DNA of 63,811 nucleotides, filler included, from Chrysochromulina tobinii (GCA_001275005.1; 6 parts of 6 records of this genome joined end to end with filler, not necessarily neighbours in it), one strand, 5' to 3'. Positions 7,501 through 59,796 are shown, counted from the first letter of the whole stretch. The notes: generated by a model not told the origin, from the sequence alone. Made by a program: numbers and translations.

Positions 7501-9958
7501 CGTCGCCACGTCGCCTCCGCCTCCGTGCCCGCCGCCCTCGCCCTCGCCGCCCTCGCCCTTGCCGCCCTCGCCCTCGCCCCCGCCGCCCTCGCCACCGCCA
7601 CCTCCGCCCTCGCCCTTGCCACCGCCCCCGCCTCTCCCGCCGTCCACCACGCCCTCGCCCTCGCCCCTCGCGCCGCCCCCTTCGGTGCCGGGAGCGGCCA
7701 CGGTGACGACTTACCAGGTTGTGATCGGCTTCGTTGCTGCGGAGCCAATCGAGGCCTTCACGCCTGCCCGGCTGGACAACATCTCGACCTCGGTCGCCGC
7801 CGAGTCGGGCGTGGACCCCAGCGCGGTCACCACGGTTGCCTATGCCGCGTCCACTCGGGTGGAGATCACCATTGTCTCCTCTACTTTGTCCGCGTGTGCC
7901 GCCATCGAGGAGTCCCTGAGCACCTCTATCTTCGAAGACGCGAACGCGGCGAGCGAGTTCTTCGGTCTTCAGGTGACGAGCGCCCCCACCATCACCGTGG
8001 AGACGGTCACCCGCCTCGTCGCTCCTCTCGGGGTGTCCGCACCGACCGACGTATCGAGCAAGAACCTCATTATCATCGTCGCTGCTGTAGTCGGTGGAGG
8101 CCTTGGCATTTGTGCGATTGGATGCTGCTGCTTCTTCCGCTACCGTGGCAAGGGCAAGTCCCGCAGCCCGGCTCGCGGCCGTGCGCAGATTGGCTTCGGT
8201 GGAGCCTCTGCTGGCAGCTCGTCCCCGCGCGGCCCCTCCGCTGAGATGGAGGACTTCAGCACTCGCAAGGGCGACAAGCCCTCTGCCGCCTCCGAGGGCA
8301 CCATCGACATCGACAAGAGCACGGCGTCGGCGAAGAAGAACAACCTGGTCGCGTCGTCGATCGCCATAACTACTCCGCGCGGGGCTGCCAAGATCGCGGC
8401 GCTCAACAAAATGGTCGAGCAGTCGAGCAACGCGAGCAAGCTCATCGCCTGGAACGATCTCGAGATGATCGAGAAGCTGGGCGAGGGCACCTTTGGCACC
8501 GTATACGCGTGCTTGTTCAAGGCGACGCCTTGCGCGGTCAAGCAGCTGCGTGAAGACAAGGAGTCTTCGGTGCAGCTGCTGGCCGACATGCTCCGCGAGC
8601 ACGACGCGATGATGGGCCTGCGCCACCCGAACGTTGTGCTCATGCTCGGCATCGCCACCGACCACGTGCGGCGCGTGGGCATCGTGCTCGAGCTGCTCGA
8701 GATCTCGCTGCTCGAGTTGCTGCACGGAGGCGCCGAGTACAAGGAGTACCTCACGTGGCGCGCCTCGCTCCTCTCGATCGCGAGCGACGTGGCCAAGGGC
8801 TTGGCGTACCTGCACTTCAACAACGTGATCCACCGCGACCTCAAGCCAGGCAACGTGCTGCTCTCGGACTCGTGGGTGGCGAAGGTTGCTGACTTCGGCT
8901 CGTCCGCCAACAGCAAGACCTCGGCCACCGCCTCCGACGGCAACGAGGCGCTCCACGGCACGGCGGCGTACATATCGCCCGAGGTGGCGCGTGGCGAGAA
9001 GAACCATACGGCCGCGCTCGACGTGTGGTCGTTTGGCTGCCTCCTCGTGCACATGGGGACGCTGCGCCCGCCGTACTTCGTGCTCAATTGCAAGCGTGCG
9101 ATGGACATCGTGCGCGTGGTGCAGCGCGGCGACGTCTCCCCTGTGCAGGTGCTCCTCGACGACTCCGAGCGTCGCGAGTACCACTGCCCCGCCAGCATTG
9201 ACGCCCTCGCTAAGCAGTGCTGCCACCGTGAGCCGACGCAGCGGCCTGACATGCCGGCGATCGCGGGCGCGCTCGCGTCGCCCGCTGTCCAAACCGGCAT
9301 CCTCAAGGGCGCCAAGGACGCGCGACCACTGGTGCGTCTGCAGCGCTCTCGAGCGTCTTTCAAGAGCGAAGGCACGTTCGCCAATGCCACCTTCGACGCC
9401 TCCGTGGCCGGATCCTATCGAAGCAAGTTTCGGATCCTATCGAAGCACGCTCCAGCTGGCGCTTCCTCAACGCGAGGCGAGCCCTCGCCCCATGCCGTGC
9501 CCTCGGTTGGCTCGGCCTTCGAGAGCTCCTTCGATGGCAAGGCCGAGGCCATCAGTTCGATCGATCGAAACGCCCGCCTCGCACGCGCGTCGATGGCCAA
9601 CCTGGACGCTACCTGGACGCTGCCAGTGAGTCGCAGCCCAGCAAGGGGTCGCAGCGCTGGAGGCTCCTCCGCGCGTGGCCAGCCCTCAAACCTCTCGCCC
9701 TCGAAGGTTGATGACTTCACAGGCACCTCCGCCTCCGCGGCGGCACCGTCGAGCGCCGCGCCCAAATCCGCCGCGGCGCCGCTTGTCTCCCCGACCGCTG
9801 TGGGCACGATGGCGCAAAAGGTGGCTCGCGTCAAGGAGGAGCTCTCACTCGACCCTTCGCTGCCGGTGGCGAAGGCAGTCGCCGAGGCGAATGCGGCCAT
9901 GGGCATCGAGGGCCAAGGCACGCTCGCGCAGCAAGTTGATGTTGGACGTATTCTGTGA
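7501..9958 (+). CDS. Single-pass receptor-like protein kinase (TKL-like) with Ser/Pro-rich ectodomain; 5' truncated
   Basis: PPSPPP repeats, then TM helix IIIVAAVVGGGLGICAIGCCCFF. Kinase motifs: LGEGTFG, AVK, HRDLKPGN, DFG, YISPE, DVWSFG. Confidence 0.9.
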
Positions 9959-10408: not shown

Positions 10409-10458
10409 CTTGACTTGACTTGACTTGACTTGACTTGACTTGACTTGACTTGACTTGA
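10409..10458 (+). repeat. (CTTGA)10 microsatellite
   Basis: Perfect pentamer array ending ~45 bp before the ATG at 10504. Confidence 0.95.
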
Positions 10459-10503
10459 CAGTTCGTTCACAAAGCGCGCGAAATCCACATGCGGATCGCT
10501 CTC

Positions 10504-13185: not shown

Positions 13186-16124
13186 ATGCCGAAAGCCGCT
13201 GTTGAGAGGACGCCGGAAGAGCCACCCATCTTCATCCCCGCCAAGGCCTTTGCGGGCGTCAAGGTCGGCTACGCGTTTCGCGCGGGCGACGACGGTGTCG
13301 GCTACTACGCGGACCCGAAGCAGAAGCCGCCGAAGCCACCAAAGCAAGCGACGAAGGCAGAGGCGCAGGCGCGCGCAAAGAAACGCACGCGCAACGACGA
13401 GGCAGCAGCACCGCCGCCGGCACCACTCGCCGCCGCCACCACTGAGCCCGTATCCGCCTATCAAAAGCTGCTCAATCACCTGAATCGGTTCCCGCCGCCC
13501 GCCGTGGCCATGGCACGCCTGCGCGGAGCCGCGGCCATGGCACCCGACCGGAATGAGGAGGACGAGGGCGATGCGACGAGCATCCCGATCGGCGAGGATG
13601 TTGCCAAGGCCGCCGCGCTCGAAGATGTTCGCGCCGACGCCGACGCCGACGCCGACGACGGCGGCGACGACGACGACGCCGACGACATCAAGCTGTACGG
13701 CTCGAAGGCCTACGACTCTCATTTTGGGAAGGAATGGCCGCGGGCAGAGCTCGACGAGGCACGCGCGAGCTGGCAGGAGCACCATTGGCAGCTGCCGGGG
13801 CTCGGCGACGCGCGCGTCCTCGTACCGCCCACCGCGACGCCACCCTCGGCCAAGCTGCAAGCGGCCAAGTCCGCGGAGACGCAGCTCAAGGGGTTGGGCA
13901 TCATCGCAGCGCTTCGTACGACGTGGCGAGCGGCGCACGGCGACGGGCCGCTGAGCGCGCCACAGCTGTCGCTGCTCGGTGTGCTCACGGGCTACGTCGA
14001 CGTCCTCGCTGCGGGCACCCCACTCACCGCGTACCCCGCTTTGATACCGGTACGCGCCCCGGCCCCCATTCCGAACATGCTGTGCATGAGAATATTGTCT
14101 GATGAGCCTTGATGATGATGACGGTGCTCATCACACGCTGCCAATGAGAATACCAATCAACCATTCAATTATTGTCTGAAGAGGTGCACCTCGTCTTGAG
14201 GTCACCCCATGAGGTCAAGCATGAATCTCACGAATTCTGAGGCAGCCTCATCCGCCCTTCTCCTTCTCTCCCCCGACGGCGCCGTACTCGCATTGCGTGC
14301 AAGGACCTCTGAGGACCTCTGAGTACCACTGAGTACCACTGAGTACCACTGAGTACCACTGAGTACCACTGAGTACCTCTGAGTACCTCTCGAATCGCGC
14401 TCCTGATTGCATCTTGATTGCATCTTGATTGGCCATCTCGAATCGCGCTCCTGATAGCATCTGATTGCATCTTGATTGAATCTTGATTGCATCTTGATTG
14501 GCCATCACGAATCGCGCTCCTGATTGCATATGATTGCATCTTGATTGCATCTTGATTGCATCTTGATTGGCCATCTCGAATCGCGCTCCTGGCCGGCAGG
14601 TACTTGCACTGCATGCGGCGCAGCATTTGGTGGTGACGCGCAAGATGCTGCTTCGTCACCAGAAGCTGCATGCGACGCCTCAAGACCAGGGCTTCACGCG
14701 CCCGACGGTGCTGGTGCTGCTCCCGTTCCGTTCACACGCGCTCGCATTCATCCAGGCGCTGCTGGCGCTCCTGCCGCCCTGCTACGAGCAGGTCGAGAAC
14801 AAGGCGCGCTTCGTCAAAGAGTACGACGAGGACGAGGGGAGCACGCCGATGCCGCTGAGTAAGCCCCCGAGGACTCCCGCGAGCCCTCTCGAGGGCAAGC
14901 ATGCAAGTGCTCACCACGGCGCCCACGCTTCCCCACAGGTAAGCCCGAGGACTACCGCGAGCTCTTCGAGGGCAACAACGACGACTGCTTCCGGTGCTCG
15001 CCGCGGCATGCAAGCGCCCAATACGGCGCCCACTCGATCGGCGGCCAGCCGTGCTCACCACGGCGCCCTCGCTTCCCCCCAGGTGCGCGCTACGCCTGAC
15101 GAAGAAGGCGGCCAAGCTCTACTCCTCCTTCTACTCGGCCGACCTGATCCTCGCCTCGCCACTGGGGCTGCGCTCCCTCCTTGACGGAGGCGGCGCCAAA
15201 GGCAAGGACTCGAAGAGGACGCGTGGCGCCCAGGACGGCGCGGATGCGGATTGGCTCTCGTCGATTGAGTTGACCCTCTTGCCATATGCGGACGTGATGC
15301 TCATGCAGGTGAGTGCCACTGAGTGCCACTGAGTGCCACTGAGTGCCTGGAGGGCTACTGAGTACCAGCCATCGCCATTCGTTGCCTACATGCCTACATG
15401 CCTGCATGCCTCGCCCACCCTCGCTGCCGGCCCGGCCTGGCTGCTAGCTGCCGCGGGGATGTCGAGGACGAGCAACCCAATCCATGTCCAACACCGAGCG
15501 CGTCTGTGAGGACCGCTATTGTACCATCAAATGCTGAGGCGTCCTACGCAGGCCCTAACCCTAACCCTCTTGACCTGGCTCGGATTGCCTTGGATTGCGA
15601 CTGATCACACCATCTCCCTCTTCACACCGGACTGCCATCGATTGCGACTGATCACACCAAATTCCTTCCCTCTTCTTTCCTGCAGAACTGGTCGCACGTG
15701 TCCGACTTGTTTGAACTCCTCAACCGACTGCCGACGCAGCAGCGCGACACCGACTTTTCCCGGGTCCGCCCGTGGTACGCGCGGACGGCACTGATGAGCC
15801 ATGAGTGCCTCCTGATGACCTCTGATGAGACCGAATTGCCTCATCAGGGGCGTCTCGAGGCCACTCATGAGCCATGATTGCCTCTTGATGGCCCCTATTG
15901 ACATCTAATTGCCCCTAATGGCCTCTCTCCTCAGGTACCTGGAAGGCGATGCCCGCCGGCTTCGTCACACCGCCGTGCTCTCCGCCCACGCGGCCCCCGA
16001 ACTCTCCGCCCTGATGCTACGCGGCTGTGCCAATATCAGCGGGCGCGTCATCACCACCCCCTCGTATGAAGGCATCCTCGGGCATGCACCGGTCGGGCTA
16101 CGTCAACTCTTCATGCGCTTCGAG
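13186..16124 (+). CDS. UTP25: U3 snoRNA-associated protein 25 (UTP25/DEF), multi-exon, 3' truncated
   Basis: Exons 13186-14049, 14600-14858, 14939-14993, 15083-15308, 15686-15774 and 15935-16124 (GT-AG, phases consistent). They give DQGFTRPTVLVLLPFR, PEDYRELFEGNNDDCFR, KLYSSFYSADLILASPLGLR, LSSIE, MQNWSHV and DTDFSRVRPWYL. Confidence 0.92.
14303..14590 (+). repeat. Intronic satellites (GAGTACCACT)n and (GATTGCATCTT)n with higher-order unit
   Basis: 10-mer array at 14303-14390, then 11-mer arrays interspersed with GGCCATCTCGAATCGCGCTCCT up to the acceptor of UTP25 intron 1. Confidence 0.92.
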
Positions 16125-16318
16125 GTGGGTGCCTCTCTTGATGACCCCTGATTGCCTCTCCTGATGACCCCACCCTCACGCACCCCCTCCACACGAGCAA
16201 TGACGATGACCTAGAGGCTGTTGCCGACCTCAGCTGAGAGATAACCTCTGTCGTTCACCGCGACATGACCGAGCTTGCGCCCTCCCCCATCCCTCCACCC
16301 CATCCCCCACCCCATCCC

Positions 16319-16418
16319 NNNNNNNNNNNNNNNNNNNNNNNNNNNNNNNNNNNNNNNNNNNNTTAATTAATTAANNNNNNNNNNNNNNNNNNNNNNNNNN
16401 NNNNNNNNNNNNNNNNNN
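16319..16418. other. Artificial contig spacer
   Basis: N44-TTAATTAATTAA-N44. Confidence 0.97.
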
Positions 16419-16655
16419 CGTTTGGGACCGGTCAAACGAGTATTGTACCGACCTCGTACATGCTTGGGCCGGAGGTACACGCATCAGTAACGTGTGTAGG
16501 CTTTACCAACGACCCGCATTCACTCATTTGTCGGAAAGCGACGCGCTTGGTTTCACCCCGGCATGCAACACGTCTACGACTTTCGCGACGGGTTGCAACT
16601 ATTTTCCGTGTCAAGACGTACCCCAGTTCAACCCCGACAATACAAATCGGCTGCG

Positions 16656-17336
16656 TCATCGGCGATAGCCAGCTGAAGGATCATTGGCGTAGTAAAGCTT
16701 CAAAGTACGTCGAGATGCGGACGGTAGGGATGAGCGAGCGTTTTGTGGGAGCGTCCAATCTTTGGCCGTTCCGAGAGCACGGTTGAATGTGGCGTTGATT
16801 GCATCTCCAGTCAACCCCGCGGCCAGCAGCTGGCGAGGTGAGAAGCCAGCTATCACCAGCAGCTCTATGCTGTAACCTGCTGCCTCCATCTCAGCAGCAT
16901 CGGCTCCAGCTATTCGCAACTCGGCAGCTCCGAACCCAGCGTCCCGCAGCGATCGCGCATCGAAACCCGCAGCCTTGAGCTGCGTCGCCTTGAAATGTGC
17001 AGCAGCCAGTTCAGAAGCCGTGAACCCGGCGGTCTGCAACGCGGCCACCTTGAACCCGGTAGCCTTAAGCTTGCGTGCATCAAAGCCGGCAGCTCGAAGT
17101 GAAAATGCATCGAAACCGGCCTTCTTCAATTTGGGTGCCTTATAACCCGCAGACGCCAGCTCCGAAGCTGAGAATCCCACCTGCTTCATAGTTTGAGCTC
17201 CAAATCCTGCAGCCTTCAGTTGGCGAGCGTCATCACCAGTCGCTCGCTGCGCTGCTGCAGCGGCAGCAACGGCGTGTGACGATCGCAGCCTGCGATTGAG
17301 TAGTGATGAGTAGATGCGGTCCAGCATGGCCAGCAT
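16656..17336 (-). CDS. Protein with 10-aa xxxLKAAGFx tandem repeats
   Basis: About 14 decapeptide repeats (ARQLKAAGFG, ASELASAGYK, ATQLKAAGFD...). The repeats are degenerate at DNA level, which indicates coding constraint. Confidence 0.75.
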   Translation of the reverse strand: MLAMLDRIYSSLLNRRLRSSHAVAAAAAAQRATGDDARQLKAAGFGAQTMKQVGFSASELASAGYKAPKLKKAGFDAFSLRAAGFDARKLKATGFKVAALQTAGFTASELAAAHFKATQLKAAGFDARSLRDAGFGAAELRIAGADAAEMEAAGYSIELLVIAGFSPRQLLAAGLTGDAINATFNRALGTAKDWTLPQNARSSLPSASRRTLKLYYANDPSAGYRR

Positions 17337-17509
17337 GTTTCTGCTGAAGGCGACCAGGAAAGTTGACAGGTGTGAACGTGCATTCGCGTTTCTCACACTG
17401 AAAGAGAAGAAACAAAAAAATTCCGCGTCGTGTTGAACATTCACGTGTGCGACGTGTGAAAACAATGGTGGAGGCTCGTTGCTCAGCTCAGACACACGTG
17501 CCCCGGTGA

Positions 17510-20500
17510 ATGCTACCCGCATCATTGCAGGCCCTCTCGGCACTACTTACGCACGCACGTTCAGGAACGATCACAGCACCGGCCCGAACTGTCGCCGTCA
17601 AGGCTACTTCCGCCGCCGCATCGCCGCCGCCGCTGGCGCCGAGTGCACCCAACGGCGCTACGCCGCCTCCTAAGCGTGAGGACGTGATCGAGTGCTCCTC
17701 TGCCTCATTGTCATCCGCTGCAGAGCTGTGCAGCAAGGTGACGGTCATATTGGTAACCTCGTTCACCCCAGCTTGCCCGGCGACTGCACTCATCGAGGCC
17801 ACGCTGGCGTCCTTCGCCTTTGTGCCCGGCTTGGAGCTCTGCTCGACGGTGATCGTGTGCGACGGGTACGTTGCTTCCAGCAAGCGCCGAACCAAGGCGG
17901 GGCGGCTGATCAGCGAGGACGAGGCGCCGTACCGTGCGTACATCGACGCCCTGCGCAAGCTCGTCGACACTGCACGCTCGTCGACGCCCGCCGGCGCCTC
18001 GCTGCCGCCGGCGCTGGCGCGCGCGTCCGTGCTGGCGCTCGAGAGCCACCACGGGTTCGGGTGGGCGGTCAAGGCCGCTCTCGAGTCGGGCCTGGTCCGG
18101 ACGCACTACATTCTCGTCGTCCAGCACGACCGCGCCTTTATGCGCCCGTTCGATATGGCGCGCGCGATCGGCTGCATGCAAGCCGACGAGGATGTCCGTT
18201 ACCTGCTGCTGCCCACCCGCTCGACGCGTCATCATGAGCAGACGATGCTGTGTAACCACCGTGTGAGGATGCCGCGGCGTACCATTCACGGCGCGCGTCT
18301 CCTCACACTCGCATTCTGGTGGGACTCGACACACCTTGCCACCGCTGCGCACTATCGCGACTTTGTGTTTCGGGAGCGGTGCGCTCAGCACGGCGCCTTG
18401 CCCGAGGAGACGAGCCTGAGTGCGTCTGATTGCCCACGATTGCCCCCCTCATCAGGTGCGTCCGGCGCGGCACTTTCCCTGAGGATACGCTGGGGAAGCA
18501 GCTGCTGACTGAGGTGAAGGAAAGAGGAGCGTGCGCAGCAGCGCGCTACCACGCCTTCCTGTGGGAGAACGCGAACCAGTGCACCGAGACTGATAATGCC
18601 GACGGCAGTGTGGTGGGCCACCTCAATGGGCAACACTGGCGCGCCTGGGTGACCGAGTCGGACGAGGTGATCGGCACGCCGGCGGACGGGTCGATGCCGC
18701 TGCCGCCGCCGCGAACGACTGCTGGTGCCCAGTTTGCACTTCAGAACAGTCGGCTGCACCATTTCCGTCGGGAGATGGCCACGCTGAGGCGCGGCGAGGC
18801 AGACGAGGCGGAGGAGGCGGAGGTGGAAGAGGAGGCGGAGGAGGAGGCGGAGGGGAGGTCGAACGAGCAGCCACTGCCCTTGACGCCGCCGCCCTCATCG
18901 CCGCCGCCCTCATCACCGCCGCCCTCATCGCCGCCGCCCTCACCGCCGCCGCCCTCACCGCCACCGCCCTCACCGCCGCCCTCGCCGCCGCCGCCGCGGC
19001 CGCCGCCACCGCCGCCGCCGCTGCCAACGCGGGTCAGGCTGAGCTCACCGCCCTCGATGAATCGGGACGCCATGCGCGATGCAACAGGCAGCCCGCCGCG
19101 CGCCGTCGTGGGCGCATCGTCGGTTCACTGCGTGGACGTGAGTTTGCGCCTCATATCGCGTGACGCACCCGCCGCCGACGCACTGCACCTCTCGGTACGT
19201 GTGTGCCCCTCGGCCTCGCAGCTGGAAGCGTCGACGCGACCGCTAGTGACGGTGGTGCTTCCGATCTTCAACGGTGAGGGTTGGCTGGATGAATGCTTGG
19301 GAGCCTTGCTTCGACAGACGTGGGTAAGTCGCCATGGGTTGCACAGACCAGCCGCCGCGCCCAGCACCGACGGCGCGGGCGACGACTGCAGCGTCGGCGG
19401 GGTGTATGAGAACGGTCACGACTGCGCACCGCCACACACCGCCTCCGCCTCCCTCGCCAATGCGGGCTTGATCGAGCTCTCCGCCTTCGATGACGGCTCG
19501 ACTGACGAAACCTGGGCTCGATTGACGAAGCACTGGGCGCCGTACCTGCGGGCATGCGGCTGGCGCGTGGTGCTGGGGCGTGGCGCGCGCCCACCCGGCG
19601 GGTATGCCCGTTGCCAAGGGCGTCTGATGGCTCTCGATTGCGTCTGTTGGCACGCGGTGGCCTCCCTCATCAGGGGTGATGACCTCTGATGACCTCTGAT
19701 TGCCTCCCTCATCAGGTGCGGCTTCGCCAAGAACCGCGCGGTTCGTCAATCGTCGGGCGTGTGGCTCCTCTTCCAGGTGGGCACTGATTGCCTCTGATCA
19801 CCTCTGATGACCGCCTCTGATGACCACCTCTGATGACCGTCTCTGATGAGCCATCTCATTTGGCCCCTTATCGCTGCAGGACGTGGATGACGTGTCACTG
19901 CCCGAGCGGCTCGACCGACAGCTCGAGGCAGCCGCACGCCAGCCCGAGGCGCTCATCGGAACGCGCGTGCGGCGCGAGCCGGACGGGTCGACCGCCCGCT
20001 ACGTGAGCTGGGCGAACGAGATGCCATCTGAGCAGCTCGTGCTCCACAGGTTTCGTGAATGCACGCTGCTCATGCCCACGTGGTTCGTGTCGCGCGCGGC
20101 CTTTGACGAAACCGGCGGCTTCGCCGAGGTCAAATGTGAGGACCTGCTCTTCTTACACGCGCACGTGCGCCGTGGCGCGCCGCTCTATCGCGTGGACGGT
20201 CCTCCATTGGTCGTGTACCGGTATCACGCTGCGGCCGCGACGCATGCAATCCCCCGCCAGACGATCCTGGGCCATCGCGTCGCCGCCTTCGAGCGCGACC
20301 AGCTCGGCGCTCAGCACGGCGCGTGGTCGCGCTTCACCATCTGGGGCGCCGGGCGCGACGGGCGCGACTTTTTTAAGCGGCTGAGCTCCGAAGCGAGATC
20401 GCGCGTGCTCGCCTTTTGCGACGTAGACGCGAAGAAGGTGGGCACCACCTACCAGTACTACGAGCACTTTGTGCCGGTCGTGCACTACACGCAGGCGCAG

Positions 20501-20608
20501 CCGCCCTTTGTCCTCTGCGTCTGCCTCGACCGCACCAACGGCGCCTTCGAGGCCAATCTCGCCTCGCTCGGGCTGCGTGAGGGTGCGGACTACTTGCACG
20601 TGGGCTAG
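17510..20608 (+). CDS. Tandem glycosyltransferase: GT-A-like N domain + Pro-rich linker + B3GNTL1/QTGAL-like (queuosine-tRNA galactosyltransferase) GT2 domain
   Basis: Exons 17510-18378, 18456-19601, 19716-19776 and 19880-20608 (phases consistent). C domain: VVLPIFNGEGWLDECL, FDDGSTD, GCGFAKNRAV, FQDVDD, TLLMPTWF, EDLLF, YRYH, FTIWGAGRDG, AFCDVD, GAFEANL. N domain: VTS..P.CPAT.LIE, IVCDG, GFGWAV, LVVQHD, WDSTHLA, FPED. Confidence 0.85.
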
Positions 20609-20731
20609 AGGAGATTTGCACGCATTTTTCTAACGAACTCTTCACACTTCCTTTTTCCGCGCAAGCTCTCGAGCACCACTTTGCCTTTTTTGGTTGAAGG
20701 AAACCAAAGACCCTAAAAGGGGACGTAAACC

Positions 20732-23410
20732 ATGTGGCTCTCGGTGCTGCTCCTTGGCGTGCCGCTGAGGGACACGGCGGATCTAGCGCTAAATTTAGAC
20801 GCTCACGCGAAGCATACCGCGGGTACTGAGGACCTCGCGGGCGACCTGCTCCAAATGGCCCGTGGCGAAGCTGAGCCTGCTCACGGGCCCGACTTTGCGG
20901 AGAATCTGGCTCTGTGGCAAGCACAGGATTTCGATGACCTCCGCAGAGCCAGGGCTCGAGCAACAAGCGATTTCGAAGACACTAAGAGCGCACATGACCT
21001 TGAGCACATGACCACTGCGCCTACGGGCACGCATTTTGTGCACACGCGTGGGGATCTTGTGCACGCTCGTGAGGCGATGAAGCATGGCCGTGAGGCGATG
21101 AAACGCGCGCACACGACCGCACGCGACATCGAGCTCACGACCTCTGGGCCAAAGGACGCACATCTTATGCACGCTCGTGCAGAGATGAAGCATGGCCGTG
21201 AGGCGATGAAGCACGGCCGTGAGGCGCTTCGTGAAACACGTTTCATGACCGCGCAAGCGCGGCAGCCGCATCACGCAAAAGAGCAGATGCCAGTGCCGCC
21301 GACCGATTTCGCGGAGGAGTTGGCCAAGGAAAAGTCTGAGAACCTCTACCGCGAGCTCGGCCCGTCCCGTGCGTCGCCCGAGTTTGCGGCCGAGCTGGCC
21401 AAGTGGCAGGAGGAGAAGGATATCGAGACGGAGCGCCAAAGGAATAACCTGACCCAGGCAAACGCGAACTCAAACCCGAAGCTGAGCCCGAACGCAAAGG
21501 AGGCCGAGCGCCTGTGGACGGTCGACAAGGATAAGGCCTTCGAGATGCAGAAGCGCAAGGCCAAGGACGCGGCACTCCTGTGGAAGGGCGCTGCGGAGGA
21601 GGCGGCGGAGGCGTATAAGCTCAAGGATAAGGCCTTCCAAGAGGAGAAGCGCAAGGCGCTCGAAGCGTCCCTCTTGTACAAGGGCGCTGCCGAGGAGGCT
21701 GCCGCAGCTGAGCGCAAGGAGCGTGAGGCTCGCTTCGGGGCTCTGCATGCGCCGGCGGTGGCTGGTACCAAGCCCGCGCTCGGGGCCGCCCCCAAAGCCG
21801 CACCGGCGCCAGCGACGGCCCCCGGGACCGCAGCGGCCCCGAAGCCCACGTGGCGCGACCCGGCGGCCGCTCCCACCAAGCCGGCCGTGGCTCCCAAGCC
21901 CGCGCCGGCCGTCGTGCCGGCACCGGCTCAGGTGGCAGCAGCTCCCAAGCCCCACCCGTGGACACCCAAACCGGAGCCCGTCGCCGAAGCGCCCGCAGCG
22001 GCGCCGGAGCGCGAGGTGGCGGCCGCGCCCAAGCTGGTCAAGGCGCCACCCGCGTTGGCGGCCAAGCCCGCGGCGGCGCCAAAGGAGCCGCTGTACAAGG
22101 GGCATCCGCAGGTGCTCGTCATCGTCTCTGACCACGGGAGCGGCACGTCGGATTTGGGAGTGGCCCTCAATACGCACCCGTGCATGCATGACCTGATGGA
22201 GCCGTTTGGCGAAGCTTTCGCGCTCTGGTCCTCGAGCAAGCTCCCCGAATGCGACGAGATGCGAACCGTCAAGAACGCCCTCTTCGACGCCGACACGCAC
22301 ACCCTCGTCAACGCGGTCAACGCGAAGCTTTCGGGCACGATCGATCGCGTACTCTCCCATGTCAACCACTCCCCCTTCACAACGGACTACTCGGTGCTCT
22401 ACAAGGACCTCGACTACAACCTCGCCGAGTACTTTGTGCGCGTGCGTGACCTCGTGTGCTCGAACGACGTCAGCGGCAAGTGTCCACCGGAGGACTGCGC
22501 GATCGTGCTCAAGCTGTTCCCAGCGTACGTGGACGTGAGCACGGACGGGCAGAAGGTTCGAACGGATCTGCCTGATAAGTGCGCCGCCGCCAAGAACGCG
22601 AGGAACGCGGTCGCGTGGTCGGATGCGCTCCTTTCGCTGCAGACGAACCCCAAGGTGGCGACGCTCCAGTACAACCGCAATGAGCTCGACAGGCAATTCT
22701 CCAACTTCCACCGGTTCAGCCAGGCCGGGACCAAGTTCGACTGCACGCTCCCCCGCTCACCCACAGCGTTTGCGGTCGTCGCGAAAGACTTTACGGACAC
22801 CCAGCTCGAGGCGGAGGACTGCTGGAAGGGTACCGAGGGTGCCGACCTGTGCCTTGGCGAGGCCCTGAAGCTCGTCGGCCTGAATGCGACCGCCATGATG
22901 GGCAAAGGCACGAACGTGATGGTGGGTGAGCTGTACATGCGCGCCTCGACCGGTAAGCTCGCCTCAGCAAGCTGCTCCAGCAACCCGAGCGCCTCGTTTA
23001 CGCGGATTGCGACCGGCGTCCAAATGATTGCACCCGAGCAGCAGCCAGGAGGCGTGCCGCCGCAGCAGGCCTACCCGCCGCAGCAGCAGGCGTACCCGCC
23101 GCAGCAGGGAGGCATGCCACCGCAGGGCTACCCGCCTCAGCAGGGCTTCCCGCCGCAGCAGCAAGCTTACCCACCGCAGCAGGGCTTCCCACCGCAGGGC
23201 TACCCGCCGCAGCAGGGAGGCATGCCGCCGCCGCAGGGCTACCCGCCGCAGCAGGGCTACCCGCCGCAGCAGGGAGGCATGCCGCCGCAGGGCTACCCGC
23301 CCGGTCAGTATGCGTGGAGCCCCGGGAACAAGTGGCAGCACGAGAAGGGGACACGTCGCAAGGGGCATGTGGTGGCCTGGCAGCACACTAGCCACACGGC
23401 TGGCGAGTGA
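20732..23410 (+). CDS. Secreted sulfotransferase-like protein with Ala/Pro-rich stalk and PPQQGY C-terminal repeats
   Basis: N-terminal signal peptide. PAPS-binding-like VIVSDHGSGTS...LNTHP...EPF (~22112), KLFP and RNELDRQFS. Tandem PPQQ(G/A)Y repeats at ~23035-23310. Confidence 0.68.
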   Translation: MWLSVLLLGVPLRDTADLALNLDAHAKHTAGTEDLAGDLLQMARGEAEPAHGPDFAENLALWQAQDFDDLRRARARATSDFEDTKSAHDLEHMTTAPTGTHFVHTRGDLVHAREAMKHGREAMKRAHTTARDIELTTSGPKDAHLMHARAEMKHGREAMKHGREALRETRFMTAQARQPHHAKEQMPVPPTDFAEELAKEKSENLYRELGPSRASPEFAAELAKWQEEKDIETERQRNNLTQANANSNPKLSPNAKEAERLWTVDKDKAFEMQKRKAKDAALLWKGAAEEAAEAYKLKDKAFQEEKRKALEASLLYKGAAEEAAAAERKEREARFGALHAPAVAGTKPALGAAPKAAPAPATAPGTAAAPKPTWRDPAAAPTKPAVAPKPAPAVVPAPAQVAAAPKPHPWTPKPEPVAEAPAAAPEREVAAAPKLVKAPPALAAKPAAAPKEPLYKGHPQVLVIVSDHGSGTSDLGVALNTHPCMHDLMEPFGEAFALWSSSKLPECDEMRTVKNALFDADTHTLVNAVNAKLSGTIDRVLSHVNHSPFTTDYSVLYKDLDYNLAEYFVRVRDLVCSNDVSGKCPPEDCAIVLKLFPAYVDVSTDGQKVRTDLPDKCAAAKNARNAVAWSDALLSLQTNPKVATLQYNRNELDRQFSNFHRFSQAGTKFDCTLPRSPTAFAVVAKDFTDTQLEAEDCWKGTEGADLCLGEALKLVGLNATAMMGKGTNVMVGELYMRASTGKLASASCSSNPSASFTRIATGVQMIAPEQQPGGVPPQQAYPPQQQAYPPQQGGMPPQGYPPQQGFPPQQQAYPPQQGFPPQGYPPQQGGMPPPQGYPPQQGYPPQQGGMPPQGYPPGQYAWSPGNKWQHEKGTRRKGHVVAWQHTSHTAGE

Positions 23411-23794
23411 AGACGCGCAAGGTGGCAGCATGCAAGTGATAGAAGGCACGCAAAGTGGCAGCACGGGATTGGTATGCGGCCGGAAGCTTCCAGGAATCTC
23501 GGGACGTTGCATGCGAGCGCACGCCGACCGAGGACGGTGGCGCTGTGACGGGCTGTGTGTGAAGAGGTCGCGCTCCAGGCAAACGGGCGGGCCTACCAAA
23601 TATGGCAAGTGACCTGCCCGTCGCTGATCGGGTTGGCTCCGGGAGGGGGGATTCCCTGTGTACACGTGGGCCGTAACAGAGCGTCTTCTGTGCAGAGTGC
23701 ATGTCGGCAAAGATGCTTGCTTGTGAGAAGCTTGATTGTGAACGTGTGAGTTGGTTGCGTACATGTCCCGACCCCGGTAACTGAAATACCTTGC

Positions 23795-23964
23795 TTCTCA
23801 TTGTGAATGGGGGCTCCCACGCCGAGCGTGGAGCGTGGTGGAGGGACTCGCGCCGGGCTGACCTCCCCTGTGGGGTAAATGGAGCAGATTCGAGTTCGAC
23901 GCGGGGAGCACTCCTCCCCGTTTTCCCCACAGGGGAGTCGTGGGAGCCCCATTCACAGTGAGAA
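23795..23964. repeat. Nested inverted-repeat (MITE-like) element, ~170 bp
   Basis: TTCTCATTGTGAATGGGGGCTCCCACG (23795-23821) pairs with CGTGGGAGCCCCATTCACAGTGAGAA (23939-23964) with 1 mismatch and 1 indel. Inner arms CTCCCCTGTGGGG / CCCCACAGGGGAG. Confidence 0.7.
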
Positions 23965-23996
23965 AGGAGGGGCTGCGGGGAGGGGCACGATCGGCG

Positions 23997-26533
23997 ATGC
24001 GGCGATTCTCCACATCCGTCGGGCCGCGTGTGCTCGCCACCCTGTCCAAATCGGTTGAAATCGGCACGCCACCACGCACCCTCATCTCTGGTCTCAGCCT
24101 GACGCTGCGCCAGGGCGAGCGCTGGGCACTCGTCGGTCCCAACGGCAGCGGCAAGTCGACGTTGTCCCAGCTGCTCGCTGACACGGTCTCCGCGGACGCC
24201 AGCGCGTCGGCGGCAGAGTACGTCTCATTTGACAGCCACCGCCAGCTCCGCCGCGACGAGGCACGCACCTTTCGCGAGAGCCGCTTCGGCGTCGAGCATA
24301 AGCGAGCTACACCCGCATCCTTTCTCTTCCCAAACCTCCACCCTCCCGACACAGACACCGAGCGGGCGGCTCTCAAGGGCTTCCAAGCGCCGCGCACGCG
24401 CCTCTCGCCGCTCCCCGTGCCGTACGATGCCACAGGCGACCATCCGCTCCTCTCGGAGCTCGAGCGCGCAGCGACCACAGGGGAGGCGGGCCGTTTGCTC
24501 GATCGGTTCAGGCGAGTGCCACTGCGTGCCACTACGTGCCACTGACTGCCTCCACTGAGTGCCACCAAGTGCCCCTGAGTGCCCCTGAGTTCCACCGAGT
24601 GCCACTGTGGAGTGCCCCAAAGCACCACTCGTTCGCACCCAATGCCACTGAGTGCGTCCGATTGCTACCTGCTCGATCGGTCCAATGCCACTGAGTGCGT
24701 CCGGTTGCTACCTGCTCGATCGGTACAGCCTGCTCGAGGCACGCCATCGGCCACTGTACGTCCTCTCCACTGGCCAGCTGCGCAAGGTCCAGCTCGCGGC
24801 TTGCCTGCTCTCGCCTCCGAGGCTACTGCTGCTGGACGAGGCTCTCGACGGCCTCGACGCAGCCTCGCGCAGAGAGGCGATCGAGGCGATTGCGCGCACG
24901 AACCACGAGCACAAGGCGACGCTCGTGATGGTGGCGCATCGTCGGGAGGACCTGCCGCACACACCGACGCACGCGCTCCTGCTCGGTCAGGGCTCGGGGG
25001 CTGGCGGCTCGGCGGCTGGCGGCTCGGGGGCTGGCGGCTCGGCGGCTGGCGGCTCGGGGGCTGGGGGCACGAGGGGGCCCACGGGCACAGGATGGCGAGC
25101 AGGCGAGTGGAAAGTGATGGAGGCAGAGGTCACCGCTCTGCTCGAAAGCGCAGACTCCGGGGATGGCGGCGGCTTCGCACAACATGAGGTTGGGGCCCCA
25201 CCCATCACGCCGCCGCCGCCGCCGCCGCCTCCACCACCCGCAAGCAAGGCGGCGGCGGTGCCGACGACGACGGCGACAAGTGACGAGCCGCGGCCGGTGG
25301 TCGAGTTTGACAAGGTGCAAATCCGGTACGACTGCGGCGCGCGCTGCTTTGTACCGCCCCTCAGTTGGACAGTGTGCGAGGGCGAGAACTGGGCCGTGGT
25401 GGGTGGGAATGGAGCTGGGAAGACAACCCTCGTCGACCTCATCTCAGGCGAGTGTGATTGCGAGTGTGATTGCGATCTGATTGCGATCTGATTGCGATCT
25501 GATTGCGATCTGATTGCGATCTGATTGCGATCTGATTGCGAGTGTGATTGCGAGTGTGATTGCGATCTGATTGCGATCTGATTGCGATCTGATTGCGATC
25601 TGATTGCGATCTGATTGCGATCCGATGACCTCGTTATGATGGCAAGACGACCCTCGCGCTCGGCTACCCGAACCCCAAGCCCAACCCCAAGCCTCGCCCT
25701 CGTCGACCCGAGCTCAGGCGAGAATGTGCTCGGCTACCAGCAGTCCATCAAGCTCTTCGGCCGGCCAAAGGGCAGTGGGGAGTCTGTGTGGGAGATCAGG
25801 CGGCAGCTCGGCGTGATCTCGACGGCGACGCACATGGAATACGTGGACCACGCGGAGGCGGTCATGCTCGGCGAGCGGCGCGCGGGAAGCAAGCAGGTGA
25901 GATGCGCTTGAATGGCTGGATTGGCTTGATGGTCTGGATTGGCTCCTTCATTGATTTACATGATGGATGGATTGAGACTTTGGAATGCTCGGTTGGCAGG
26001 TGAGCACGTGGGAGGTCGTGTGCTCAGGCTTCTTCGACTCCATCGGACTGTACGCCGAGCCGAATGCCGCACAGGTCGAGGTGGCGAAGCGCTGGATCGA
26101 GTGCTTTCGATTGACCGATCTGGTGATCCCTCCAAAGCAGCAGCCTCCCGTGTCGTCTCGTGGGGGGGCGGGGGGGTACGCCGCCGCGGCAGCCAAGGCG
26201 AAGGCCCTCCTTGCGGGCGGGAACAGCGGCGGCGGCGGCGATGGGAGCGCCGCCGGGGAGGCGCGCAACTTTTGCCACCTCTCGTTCGGACAGCAGAAGC
26301 TGATCTTACTCTGTCGGGCCGTTGTGAAACGGCCGCGGCTGCTGCTGCTGGACGAGCCCACGCATGGTCTCTCGTCTGAGAATCGTGCGCGGCTGCTCGG
26401 GATGCTTGGTACCCTCGCGGCCGATCCGAGCGTGGCCATCGTCCTCGTGACCCACCGCAAGGACGAGATCGAAGCGCTCGGTTTTGAGCACTTTCTGAGG
26501 CTCGATGGGGGTGAGCGGACGGCCGAGGCCTGA
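23997..26533 (+). CDS. ModF-like soluble ABC ATPase with two nucleotide-binding domains
   Basis: Exons 23997-24511, 24729-25447, 25718-25896 and 26000-26533 (two GC-AG introns, one GT-AG). NBD1: GPNGSGKS, LSTGQ, LLLLDEALDGLD, VAH. NBD2: GGNGAGKT, GSGESVWEIRR, SGFFDSIGLY, LSFGQ, LLLLDEPTHGL, VTH. Confidence 0.88.
25448..25625 (+). repeat. Intronic satellite (GATTGCGATCT)n/(GATTGCGAGTGT)n
   Basis: Tandem 11-12-mers starting at the GC donor of ABC intron 2. Confidence 0.92.
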
Positions 26534-26988
26534 GCGTGTCGAGGCGCCCAACCTACGCCAGCACGGCGCTCGACGTGAGCTGAGCTACCTTTCCAAATAC
26601 GGTACACGTACAGTACGAGAGGGCGGTCACAGTTCCATGTCACAGTTCGTCAAAGAATTCTTACCGATGTCCGACTAATCCGATATGTACATACACATCT
26701 TCCCTTCACACCTGTCTGGGGTCGCGTTGTGCTCGCGGCGCAACATTTCCAGGTACCCAATTCCACGGCTGCCCACCCGCGAGCCACCTGCGAGGCGCAT
26801 TCACCGCGCGTCCGGACCCCGACCGAGTCTACATTAGAACAACTCGCTCGCGAAACGTAAAATCGGGATTCAAGTGTTTCCGTTTCACAAGTATCACAAC
26901 ACATCCGAAAGTTGTCGCGCTCGCAAAGAGGACAGGGTCAAGCTCGCGAAGTCGCGCTCGGAAGCGGTTCGGGACACGCCGGACCACG

Positions 26989-29859
26989 ATGCCGATAATG
27001 TTCAAAGCGCACGAAGCAGCGAAGGAGCAAGGCCAGCACATGTCATGGGCCTGTTCGACGTGCACGTTGAATAACGTCGCCAGCGCACGCCATTGCAAGG
27101 CGTGTGACGCGCCACGGCCGGGCGGCGGTCCGGTCCCCGAAGCCGTCACATCGCCGGAGGAAGATGGCATGTGGCCTAGGGCGCCAGGAGCTGCCGAGCC
27201 ATTTCCATCGTACGCTGGCGGCCATGGACGCGGCGCAGTTCGAAGCGCTCCAGATGGCGGCCGCCGACCCGGCGCTCCAACTCAATCTCCACCCATCTGG
27301 GGCTCCTTCGAGCGCAACACGGGCACGTGGACGCCCTACTCGGCCACCGAGACCGCCGCCATCGAGGATGCGTTCGCTCGGGGCCACCCATCCATCTACC
27401 TGCCAACGTGCTTCAACGCGACGGTCCACTTCAACCGATTCGGCGGCCACCACCACCAGACGACGCCGGCCGTAGGCAGCAAGCCTGAAGGCTACCGCAG
27501 CGTGCTTCGGGGCACGGCCGGCATGAAGGCGACGCTGCACTGGGATGGCTCGATGTGGCGGCTCGAATTACCAAACTTCCACACGGGGTACGAGCAGCAG
27601 GTGGAAATCTACGCTGCACCGATGATAACTGAACATCAGGCTTTGCTCTTGTACAAGGCTCTCGAGGAAGCAAAGAAGCGGGAAGAATCGGCCAAGATCC
27701 GCGAGGCACAACTAGTCGAAGAATTGAATGTGGCGAAAGCAAAAGCGATACACGACTTCCAGTCCAAGCAGGCTGAGCAGGCCTTACAGGATGAGCGCCG
27801 TTTCGGACGCGTCGTTGCCATGGCTCCTGTCAGTCAGTACACAGCTGACGAAGGGAAGTCCGCCTGCACTACGATCGCCTGCTTTGGAGCGCTCGAAATG
27901 CTTCAGAGGCTTCGCACGTTTGGCTTGGGCCTAGTTGCGCAGCCTGGCGGCTTTGCTTTGAGCCCTCCACACCTCAACTCAGCTGAGCTTGCAGATGCGC
28001 TTGTTCGGGTGGTCAAACAGGGAGTGGACGCTCACGTTCGGGCGCTCAGCCATAATCCAGCATCTCAGCACCGCTCTTCAAGCGAAGTCATGGATGAGTT
28101 ACCTGCGACTCACGAGCTGCGAGAGAAACTATTCCGCGGCACTTGCACCGAATACTTGCTGTCGGGCAGCGAAGATGAGCGGGCAGCGTGCTTCATGCAA
28201 GCGCTTCAGCCGCCGGCTGCACCGCACACGGCAGCCAGCTACGTGCTTACGAAGCCGCCGGAGACGGTGCTTTGCGTCATCGGAGCAGACGCCAGTACAC
28301 CGTGCTTTCTGTTGGACTCGCACCCGAACTCATCGCGCAGGCTGGCTGGTGCCCACGCCTTGCGCTTCGACTGCGTGCAATCCTTGTGCACCGCGCTCTG
28401 TCACCGCTTTCCGGTGGTGCACCTCCCTGATGTGGATCCGGGGGACTGGCAGCTGGCATACATGCGCCAGTTCAGCGCAATGCCGCTGATGCTGACAGTA
28501 CCGCTGACCGACAACGAGCGCAACTCGATGCAGTGCCCAATCATGCTCGAGCTGATGGTCGATCCAGTTGTTGCTATGGATGGGCATACTTACGAGCGTG
28601 AAAACATCTTGCGGCACTTTGAAGCCGAGCGCGAGCGCATTGCTGCTACGCATCAGCCTGCTCATGGTGATGACGCGTGTTGCGGCCACGTCCAAGTTCG
28701 TCACACCATCAACTCACCGCAAGGAGGCCAAATACTTGTTGAGCTGCTCGTTCCCAACCGGTTCGCTCTGACCGCGATTCAACAGGCCGTCGAAGGCGGG
28801 CGCCTTGGTGATGGCGAAGTGTGCGATTGGCGTGAGCGCCGTGAAGCGGTGGTGCGTCAAGGTGGTCAAGGTGGTCAAGGTGAGGCCATCCTGGAGCGAC
28901 TGGCTCCGCCACCCGAGCGGCCCCAGTCACACCTCAAGGAGGGCTTCTTGATCATCTGCAACCGCCGCACGGATGCTCCGCGGTGGTACATGGTGCTGTT
29001 CAAGGATCGGATCAGCTGGTACAGGGATGACTCGAAGAACGAGCCGCTCGGTCAGTTTCGCTTCCGTCCGCACACAGAGGTGCTGCTGACTCGAGACCAG
29101 TTGACCCTGACGACTCCCAGTTCAGACCAAGGGGATGGGAGCCTCGCCGCTGAAAAAGCTGAAAAAGTCGTGCTCCGTACTGATGCGCACAACGCATCAG
29201 TCGAATTGCAAGAGTGGCAAGATGCGATTCGGGAGCAGTTGCGGCGATGTGCTGCCATGAGCTACGCACCCAGAGCTGAACACGCGCGCATTCTGGAGAA
29301 CGGACTCGCCATCGGCCTGTGCACCGAAGCTGAGCTCAAGGTCGGACAAGACACAGCCATCCGAACCCATTGTGAATGCTGCGGACAGACGGCGCCGCCA
29401 CCCTTTGCTCCTCGGCAGTGCAAGCGCTGTGCGCGTGTTCTCTGTGTGGCGTGCGTGCCGCATACAGCATTCTCGTTCGAGGAGGCCGTGATCGACAACG
29501 AGAGTGTCACTGAGCCTCAATGCAATCATCCTATCTGTATGGAGTGCTTCGAGGACGCCGCCAATAGATTGCGCCGCACTGTGGTGGACGAGAGTGAGCG
29601 CCATTACTTGCAACTACTGAATGAGAAGCTGCAGCCCTGGGAGCAACAGCAGACGACTCTTGCTAAGGCCCAGGTCAAACAGAGACTCGAAGCAGAGCAC
29701 ACTCTTCTTGAGGAGCAACTTGATGCTACACATGCTGCTGACATGGCCGCTCTTCGCACGAAGATCGCCAAAGCGGAAGAAGAGACTCGGGCGCGTCAGT
29801 TGGATGTGGAACGAGCGCAGGTTGCGGCCCAGGCTGCAGAGGGGGGGGCACCGCCGCCG
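26989..29859 (+). CDS. Multidomain ubiquitin-system protein: RanBP2 ZnF, WWE, papain-like peptidase-like, U-box, PH, FYVE-like Zn finger, coiled coil; 3' truncated
   Basis: WACSTCTLNN..ARHCKACDAPRP; WTPYSATETAAIEDAF; SQY...SAC...FLLDSHP; CPIMLELMVDPVVAMDGHTYER...LVPNR; KEGFL...WYMVL...WQDAI; CECC...CKRC..VLCVAC...CMEC. Confidence 0.85.
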
Positions 29860-59644: not shown

Positions 59645-59684
59645 CTTGACTTGACTTGACTTGACTTGACTTGACTTGACTTGA
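59645..59684 (+). repeat. (CTTGA)8 microsatellite
   Basis: Perfect pentamer array in a divergent intergenic region. Confidence 0.95.
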
Positions 59685-59796
59685 CTCGCTTTTTTCACTT
59701 TTGGACGAGCACACAGGCGCAAGCGAGGGCGGCGCGCCGGCCGGACTTCCGTCCCTCCGCCCGCTTGCGTGGCTTCGGAGAGGAAGCGTGGACAAC

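What the first reader, a model, noticed from the sequence alone, without database searches (positions are those of the whole stretch)
14050..25999. Intron signature across three genes: all 11 complete introns are bounded by direct repeats
Seen: in UTP25 (5), the glycosyltransferase (3) and the ABC gene (3), each intron either has its donor bases repeated at the start of the next exon (GTAC, GTAAG, GTGC, GTAC, GTGCG, GT, GCGAG, GTGAG) or follows an exon ending in CAG, or both. In four cases the repeat extends to 16-40 nt. Many neighbouring multi-kb genes have no introns at all. One ordinary intron (59089-59217) lacks the pattern. Known: short AG|GT proto-splice bias is general, and introner transposons co-opt target duplications. 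Inference: a duplication- or repair-driven intron-gain process distinct from classical introners, since these intron bodies are not copies of one element. The span crosses a contig spacer.
Basis: partly seen in the sequence, partly recalled or inferred. Interest (0 to 1): 0.78.

Follow-up and report, generated by a model that had tools for sequence, protein, structure and literature searches.

The report
Algal introns carrying their own footprints
In this freshwater alga many spliced introns contain 16-47-base copies of the neighbouring coding sequence plus repeat blocks shared with other introns, and related algae lack introns at these positions, so new introns likely arise when a broken gene is patched with a piece copied from another intron.

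Summary
The 11 introns are real: 10 are spliced in RNA contigs and one is fixed by homologues. "All 11 bounded by direct repeats" is overstated. Four (U2, G1, A1, A2) carry 16-40-nt degenerate copies of the flanking exon, beyond every cross-pair control; the other seven match no better than the control (p=0.35).

With longer assemblies, 10 of 17 introns of this haptophyte hold an exon copy, flush or internal (74-100% identical). So do 4 of 8 introns of other haptophytes, and 0 of 21 non-haptophyte UTP25 introns.

All seven UTP25 intron positions are missing in the four relatives that cover them. In one syntenic pair the empty site has one copy of the target and the filled site two, around telomere-like repeats.

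Intron bodies are not unrelated: they share two end-block families, almost always in sense orientation, without terminal inverted repeats.

Best reading (inferred, 0.5): staggered-break repair filled from existing intron ends, one splice site coming from the duplication. Main rival: a retroposed non-autonomous element. It is a variant of Daphnia-type repair gain and of introners. The scan noted a similar footprint on another piece of this genome (e1-2577349).

The parts
13186..16125 (+). UTP25 gene, exons 1-6; continues past the contig end, with 2 more introns (U6, U7) in L038
   Evidence: Pfam PF22916; spliced frame; RNA joints
14050..14599 (+). Intron U1, GT-AG, 550 nt; 5-nt exact junction repeat; 10-11-nt repeat arrays; weak internal exon-like stretch 14284-14300 (14/17, within null)
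14859..14938 (+). Intron U2, 80 nt = degenerate copy of the next exon's first 37 nt (14859-14898 vs 14939-14975; supplies the donor) + 40-nt acceptor block of family F2 (14899-14938)
   Evidence: same copy in strains L039 and L043
14994..15082 (+). Intron U3, 89 nt; 7/8 match to next exon start (not above null); 3' block of family F2
15309..15685 (+). Intron U4, 377 nt; upstream exon ends in CAG; 5' array of 10-nt repeats shared with A1; short telomere-like stretch inside
15775..15934 (+). Intron U5, 160 nt; 5-nt exact junction repeat; F1-type repeats
16319..16418 (.). Contig spacer (N44, 12 nt, N44); not biological
17510..20608 (+). Gene with an unannotated N-terminal part and a C-terminal GT2-family glycosyltransferase
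   Evidence: homologues with PF00535, incl. Prymnesium parvum; spliced frame
18379..18455 (+). Intron G1, 77 nt = 34-nt degenerate copy of the next exon start (18379-18412 vs 18456-18489, 25/34) + 43-nt F1 acceptor block
19602..19715 (+). Intron G2, 114 nt; no significant junction copy; 3' block 19677-19715 is a high-copy repeat (family F1)
   Evidence: homologue test; pile-up of unrelated RNA contigs
19777..19879 (+). Intron G3, 103 nt; upstream exon ends in CAG; 13-nt repeat array; no significant junction copy
23997..26534 (+). ABC ATPase gene with two nucleotide-binding domains
   Evidence: PF00005; spliced frame
24512..24728 (+). Intron A1, GC-AG, 217 nt; acceptor is a copy of the upstream exon end (24713-24728 vs 24496-24511, 15/16); second copy 24670-24684 inside a 43-nt tandem unit
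25448..25717 (+). Intron A2, GC-AG, 270 nt; both splice sites lie in a 26-nt duplication (25697-25722 vs 25427-25452); further exon-like pieces 25640-25677; 11-nt repeat array
25897..25999 (+). Intron A3, 103 nt; 9-nt exact repeat across the junction (not above null); the only body not linked to the others

Best explanation
These are spliced introns at positions that relatives lack, many holding copies of the flanking exon, and they likely arose when a staggered break in coding DNA was repaired with filler copied from the end of an existing intron, which would duplicate 10-40 bases of the target. In this reading one splice site comes from the duplicated target (a GT/GC at its start, or an AG at its end) and the other from the filler, so splicing removes the filler plus one target copy and the protein is unchanged. 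The same process would then strike existing junctions again and leave internal exon copies. Shown: splicing, the duplications, lineage-specific positions, single-copy empty sites in relatives, shared end blocks, sense orientation. Inferred: the break, the template switch, the enzyme, the order of nested events, and that old short matches are decayed duplications.
For: Splicing of 10 of 11. Exon copies in 10 of 17 introns of this organism, 4 of 8 in other haptophytes, 0 of 21 in non-haptophyte UTP25 loci; upstream AG or donor dinucleotide repeated downstream in 17/17, 8/8 and 6/21. Copy lengths 15-47 nt and identities 74-100%, so not one length and not one age. All 7 UTP25 positions absent in L001, L003, L004 and L037. 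L003 and L066 are syntenic (84-93% nt in exons): of 4 complete L066 introns, all absent from L003, 3 show a duplicated target that is single in L003. U2, G1 and X4 consist of exon copy plus a 40-49-nt acceptor block and have no AG before the donor, so copy and filler are both needed at once. In X1 and X3 the filler repeats the adjacent intron's own 3' end and joins the exon copy at short shared words (sequence): local templating with no transposon ends. 3' ends are more alike within genes than between (p=0.023, 4 genes). No terminal inverted repeats in 5 of 5 fillers tested. Staggered-break gain with repeated later rounds is the reading given for Daphnia neointrons (PMC4202315, passages).
Against: 7 of 11 window introns show nothing above the null. 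No whole genome was held, so autonomous elements, copies outside genes and insertion-site consensus were not examined. Fixed, shared 3' termini (F1, F2, and the telomere-like end in L066) fit a mobile element equally well. The 5'-end within-gene test was negative (p=0.22). No presence/absence difference among strains of this organism (L039 over U1-U5, L043 over U1-U4). One position (P0004 residue 212) is shared by L066 and L072. Only one gene was compared across lineages, the tree is the quick version, and loss through cDNA in L001 and L003 is not excluded. Introns outside the window rest on protein homology, not RNA, and the L042 gene was first noticed because of its copies. Control introns are shorter (44-128 nt) and probably older.
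Confidence: 0.5

Rival explanations
1. The fillers are short non-autonomous mobile elements (an introner-like family), most likely inserted by target-primed reverse transcription of a small RNA or of a released intron's 3' tail. Long variable duplications are their target-site duplications, and selection keeps only the orientation that splices.
For: Shared 3' blocks: U2, U3, U7 (scores 24-32) and G1, G2, X3, X4; both blocks are high-copy in RNA runs. Variable 5' ends with fixed 3' ends and long variable duplications are hallmarks of non-LTR insertion (established knowledge, recalled). Introner families are catalogued in Chrysochromulina, Emiliania and Phaeocystis assemblies, most of the Phaeocystis and Emiliania rows seen having '?' for TSD (PMC9860276 supplement rows). 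Non-LTR elements make 5% of classified introners and about 72% are unclassified (PMC12130899 passages).
Against: Bodies are mosaics of 72-550 nt with different repeat units, not end-to-end copies. X1, X3 and A1 are local tandem duplications of the adjacent intron end. In A1 the filler supplies the donor and the duplication the acceptor, the mirror image of U2. In L037 introns with duplications hold no tandem arrays. No Rfam family in 13900-26100.
Confidence: 0.27
2. Plain tandem duplication of an exon piece holding AG|GT made the intron (Rogers model), and repeat arrays invaded later.
For: A2 and A3 have both splice sites in the duplication, as do L037c and L066a. Tandem duplication across junctions is clearly active (X1, X3, A1). 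Precedents in PMC4974935 (passages).
Against: 8 of 17 introns have no AG before the donor; in U2, G1 and X4 the acceptor lies in the shared filler, and the bare copies (23-40 nt) would carry no acceptor.
Confidence: 0.13
3. The introns are old. Their ends were overwritten by slippage from neighbouring exons, relatives lost them, and the short matches are ordinary proto-splice bias.
For: 7 of 11 are within the null. Internal copies in U6, U7, X1-X3 and L037c show that existing junctions are re-duplicated. L001 and L003 have no UTP25 intron at all, as gene-wide loss would give.
Against: Intron-bearing relatives (L004, L037, L066, L072) use different positions: 14 introns at 13 positions, one coincidence. 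Flush copies that supply the only donor cannot be later additions unless an older intron was lost exactly. Controls show 0 of 21.
Confidence: 0.1

Closest known systems
Intron gain by staggered double-strand-break repair in Daphnia pulex (Li et al. 2014, PMC4202315; passages read)
   Same: [quoted passage not shown]
   Different: There 33 such repeats of 4-12 bp, AT-rich fillers of mostly unknown source, polymorphic in populations. Here 15-47 nt, fillers traceable to shared intron-end blocks and repeat arrays, fixed in the strains seen.
Introners, incl. Chrysochromulina sp. family with 4-bp TSD and no TIR (Gozashti et al. 2022, PMC9860276; passages and supplement rows) and Symbiodinium/Polarella classes (10.1101/2020.10.14.339549; passages)
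   Same: One splice site carried, the other taken from the duplicated target, in either arrangement; GC donors; repeated sequence among introns; same phylum.
   Different: TSDs described there are 3-9 bp and the classes I read have a set length; families are defined by similar introns. Here duplication length varies several-fold, only end blocks are shared, and junctions are duplicated again later.
Intron gain by tandem duplication (Rogers model; potato RdRp case, PMC4974935; passages)
   Same: Duplication across an intron-exon border gives 3' signals from the old intron and a donor from exon sequence, as in X1 and X3.
   Different: Reported as rare single cases; here it recurs in most introns of some genes, and U2, G1 and X4 have no upstream parent intron at the site.
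Direct repeats near splice sites of introns in general (Rogers and Bendich 2025, PMC11782384; abstract only)
   Same: 4-30-bp repeats near borders, read as insertion footprints.
   Different: A survey of 213 mixed introns. By my stricter cross-pair test ordinary UTP25 introns show none (0 of 21), so the haptophyte signal is lineage-specific.
Short interstitial telomeric insertions at repaired breaks (recalled; also named in scan notes e1-7377310 and e1-7376772)
   Same: L066 fillers are CCCTAA-like arrays between duplicated targets; CCCTAA is the Phaeocystis globosa telomere motif (PMC11347835 passage).
   Different: The window's organism uses mainly 10-13-nt units and a non-repetitive F2 block, which telomerase would not make.

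Membership tests
Introner elements | Similar sequence in introns at unrelated sites | tested here: met
   For end blocks only: 16 of 17 bodies link; F1 and F2 3' blocks; high copy in RNA
Introner elements | End-to-end similarity and uniform length within a family | tested here: not met
   72-550 nt mosaics; F2 members 80, 89 and 264 nt share only 30-45 nt
Introner elements | Short TSD of set length (3-9 bp) where present | tested here: not met
   Flush copies 16, 23, 26, 34 and 37-40 nt
Introner elements | Terminal inverted repeats (DNA-transposon subclass) | tested here: not met
   4-8 of 20 matches in 5 of 5 fillers; many introners also lack TIRs
Introner elements | Splice site co-opted from the target | tested here: met
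   Donor in U2, G1, X4; acceptor in A1; both in A2
Introner elements | Recent, lineage-specific positions | tested here: met
   UTP25 only: 7 of 7 positions absent in the 4 relatives covering them
Introner elements | Autonomous partner or copies outside genes | not testable with these tools
   No whole genome held
Staggered-break (Daphnia-type) intron gain | Exon-terminal repeat at the opposite intron end, single at the empty site | tested here: met
   5 of 17 flush copies here; single-copy empty sites in L003 vs L066 and L001 vs window
Staggered-break (Daphnia-type) intron gain | Internal repeats from later rounds | tested here: met
   U6, U7, X1, X2, X3, A1, A2, L037c
Staggered-break (Daphnia-type) intron gain | Presence/absence polymorphism within the species | tested here: inconclusive
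   None in two strains over U1-U5 and U1-U4; small sample
Rogers tandem duplication | Both splice sites from a duplicated AG|GT | tested here: not met
   Met for A2 and A3 but not for U2, G1, X4; 8 of 17 lack an upstream AG
Non-LTR retroposition (TPRT) | Long variable TSD with one fixed and one variable end | tested here: met
   U2, G1, X4, L066a,b; the feature list is recalled
Non-LTR retroposition (TPRT) | Master element, reverse transcriptase and cleavage consensus | not testable with these tools
   No genome; contig-level RNA cannot show small RNA ends (header)

The most novel reading that the evidence does not exclude
Haptophytes run a self-feeding, transposase-free intron factory: repair at staggered breaks copies the splice-ready end of an existing intron (from DNA or from a released intron RNA), so intron ends breed new introns. 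Each lineage amplifies its own branch-point-like repeat, telomere repeats in one lineage and 10-13-mers in this one, and this accounts for most intron positions in these genomes.
Probability: 0.3. Interest if true: 0.85.

Novelty: new variant of a known kind. Interest (0 to 1): 0.62.

Why it matters
The source of most newly gained introns is unknown, and repair-based gain rests on few cases with short repeats (PMC4974935, PMC4202315, passages). Here the footprint is long enough to read in over half of the introns sampled in one organism, recurs in other haptophytes with different fillers, spans ages from 100% to 74% identity, and comes with filled and empty orthologous sites. That makes repair versus retroposition testable genome-wide with existing haptophyte genomes. 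Introner pipelines that need whole-intron similarity or short fixed TSDs would likely miss or leave such introns unclassified (inference). The exon copies also mislead gene callers: two database proteins read straight through U2 and U3 (P0001, P0002).

Tried and rejected
No whole genome was held, so no genome-wide count. Motif scans for more introns of this organism failed: viral contigs gave 0, 5, 3 and 1 loci in four scans, none a haptophyte intron on inspection (L183 is noted separately); genome contigs gave 99 loci, of which the 6 flagged as repeat-rich were unrelated prokaryotic sequence. Hammerhead-ribozyme idea for the CTGATGA-like core: Rfam gave one chance hit, elsewhere. Assembly artefact: rejected, since U1-U5 recur in other assemblies and strains and X1-X4 are identical in L040 and L042, though those may be the same culture. 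A spliced-mRNA copy as source of the 47-nt junction copy in U7: disfavoured because its halves differ in age (19/19 upstream, 22/28 downstream). The first permutation kept self-pairs in the null and was replaced by derangements. Control set: 26 candidate gaps were tried, 5 gave no GT-AG solution and were dropped, 21 kept, a few with small score margins. A second candidate intron in L072 was dropped as not UTP25 exon sequence, one wrong L037 call was replaced, L050, L067 and L074 were left out as near-duplicates, L002 as possibly a transcript. The careful tree did not finish; the quick tree was used. A DOI guessed from memory returned an unrelated paper. PMC6759080, PMC8226300, PMC4580454 and PMC12480563 (passages) held nothing on this pattern; PMC11282704 (passages) reviews short TSDs only. 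Ten literature searches found no description of long variable exon copies in haptophyte introns; subscription papers are not covered, and a recalled report of 10-11-bp intronic repeats in Emiliania was not found. The bioRxiv supplement listing the dinoflagellate classes was not seen and may include longer TSDs.
Full report
Context. The window is six eukaryotic contigs joined by spacers, 57-72% GC. Best named homologues of the UTP25 and glycosyltransferase exons are haptophytes such as Prymnesium parvum, and the runs that hold the DNA are mixed-culture and freshwater samples. I infer a freshwater prymnesiophyte, probably Chrysochromulina-like. No whole genome was held.

The introns are real. 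RNA contigs skip U1-U5 and G1, G3, A1, A2, A3: 10 of 11, A1 and A2 in one run only. G2 is not among the listed joints but is the best of all splice pairs tested against 8 homologues. Removing the 11 gives three open frames. Boundaries therefore do not depend on the repeats.

How much is more than chance. Each intron's ends were scored against its own exons and against the exons of the other introns (match +1, mismatch -1, gap -3; 40 nt). U2, G1, A1 and A2 score 24, 17, 14 and 20; the 110 cross pairs reach 11 at most (set-wide p<=1e-5). Without these four, the other seven are at the null (40 against 38.2, p=0.35). So four introns carry long copies and seven carry only proto-splice-type matches. 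Still, all 11 have either an AG before the donor (U4, G3, A1, A2, A3) or a next exon that starts with GT (U1, U2, U3, U5, G1, G2, none of which has an upstream AG).

More introns. A metagenome scan with a UTP25 alignment gave 75 loci. L038, L040 and L042 are the same organism on longer contigs; L039 (99.4%) and L043 (97%) are strains. They add U6 and U7 and four introns, X1-X4, of a downstream gene, each the top-scoring splice pair against 7 homologues. All six hold an exon copy: X4 flush (21/23); U6, U7, X1, X2 and X3 internal (19/20, 41/47, 25/25 and 24/25, 30/39 and 25/30, 27/28). Overall 10 of 17 introns pass the cut-offs, as do 4 of 8 from other haptophytes and 0 of 21 from non-haptophyte UTP25 loci; 'upstream AG or donor dinucleotide repeated' holds for 17/17, 8/8 and 6/21. 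Caveats: these extra introns rest on homology, the X gene drew my eye because of its copies, and the control introns are shorter and probably older.

Age. The seven UTP25 positions are absent in L001 (genomic, intronless, the closest genomic locus on the quick tree), L003, L004 and L037; the 14 introns mapped fall at 13 positions, with one coincidence, L066/L072. L003 and L066 are syntenic, 84-93% identical in exons. L066 has four complete introns that L003 lacks; in three the target is doubled around CCCTAA-like arrays and single in L003, and the fourth shows no long copy. X2 lies in the second copy of a domain whose first copy has no intron. Gain is the simplest reading; gene-wide loss in L001 and L003 is not excluded. 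Strains differ in none of the introns seen, and a further strain's read-through protein shows a different version of the U2 copy (P0001), so U2 predates those splits. Copies of 96-100% identity (X1, X3, L037c) point to recent activity.

The fillers. Family F1 is made of 10-13-nt arrays, often ending in CTCATCAG (G1, G2, X2, X3, X4); family F2 is a 30-45-nt acceptor block (U2, U3, U7). Both attract many unrelated RNA contigs, so they are high-copy. The repeat core lies 94 times in sense and once in antisense inside introns, against 27 and 32 times in the rest of the window; many units contain a branch-point-like CTRAY (consensus recalled). No terminal inverted repeats in 5 fillers; 3' ends are somewhat more alike within genes (p=0.023), 5' ends are not (p=0.22).

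Mechanism. U2, G1 and X4 are the clearest: a 23-40-nt copy of the next exon start supplies the donor and a 40-49-nt shared block supplies the acceptor; with no AG upstream, both parts are needed at once. A1 is the mirror image; A2 takes both sites from the copy. X1 and X3 show the unit 'intron 3' end plus 24-26 nt of exon' repeated in tandem, joined at short shared words, and U7 shows two nested events of different age. I infer repair of staggered breaks with synthesis templated on nearby or other intron ends, selection keeping products that splice cleanly (0.5). A retroposed non-autonomous element explains fixed 3' ends and variable duplications as well, but less easily the local tandem and mirror cases (0.27). 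Plain tandem duplication fails where the acceptor is not in the copy (0.13). Old introns with rewritten ends fit the internal copies but not the positions (0.1). No enzyme, break or template was observed.

Comparison. It works like Daphnia staggered-break gain (repeats of 4-12 bp, repeated rounds; PMC4202315 passages) and like introners in co-opting a splice site (3-9-bp TSDs; a Chrysochromulina family with 4 bp; PMC9860276 passages and supplement rows; 10.1101/2020.10.14.339549 passages). It fails introner tests for end-to-end similarity, short set TSD and TIRs, so I do not file it there. Duplication across an intron-exon border is known from single cases (PMC4974935 passages). Ten searches found no account of long variable exon copies in haptophyte introns, within the library's limits; unseen supplements of the dinoflagellate preprint could bear on TSD length. 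Scan notes report a 15-bp case with many relatives in the same genome (e1-2577349) and telomere-repeat introns elsewhere; these are unchecked AI notes, not support.

Verdict. Observation partly confirmed, interpretation partly supported. A real, phylum-wide-looking footprint of intron gain and junction re-duplication; a new variant of known mechanisms; interest 0.62.

Noticed in passing
L042:13942-14397 and 15133-15295 (gene downstream of UTP25, outside the window): Introns X1 and X3 hold one or two extra acceptor-plus-exon-start units, giving internal AG|GT sites that could allow recursive or alternative splicing.
   Followed up: partly
L003:1866-1955: 90-nt GT-AG insert between two copies of a 12-nt target, made of TTAGGG-like repeats followed head-to-head by CCCTAA-like repeats, as if both ends of a break had been extended by telomerase. 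It is in frame and stop-free, so splicing is not shown.
   Followed up: partly
L066:287-413 and other L066/L067 introns: Telomere-like introns, 4 of 5 ending in CCC[TG]AACCAG; one appears to start with GA (non-canonical donor) by alignment to the empty orthologue.
   Followed up: partly
L183:1102-1155: A 2.3-kb viral contigs record with a Rep-like stretch (motif recalled) carries a 54-nt GT-AG insert of telomere-like repeats between near-identical 14-15-nt copies: the same anatomy in a small virus-like genome of unknown host.
   Followed up: no
   Followed up: no
   Followed up: partly
window 10409-10459 and 59645-59686: Perfect (CTTGA)n arrays upstream of genes; a short similar run lies upstream of the L042 gene.
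   Followed up: no
P0001, P0002: Database proteins that read through introns U2 and U3: gene-calling errors caused by the stop-poor exon copies.
   Followed up: yes
window 7501-9955 and 26584-29859: Very deep, divergent RNA contigs pile on the kinase gene and the U-box/WWE gene, suggesting multi-copy families.
   Followed up: no
window 17510-20608: The GT2 domain is fused behind a long unannotated N-terminal domain and a proline-rich linker; only near-length homologues of the last exon were searched.
   Followed up: no
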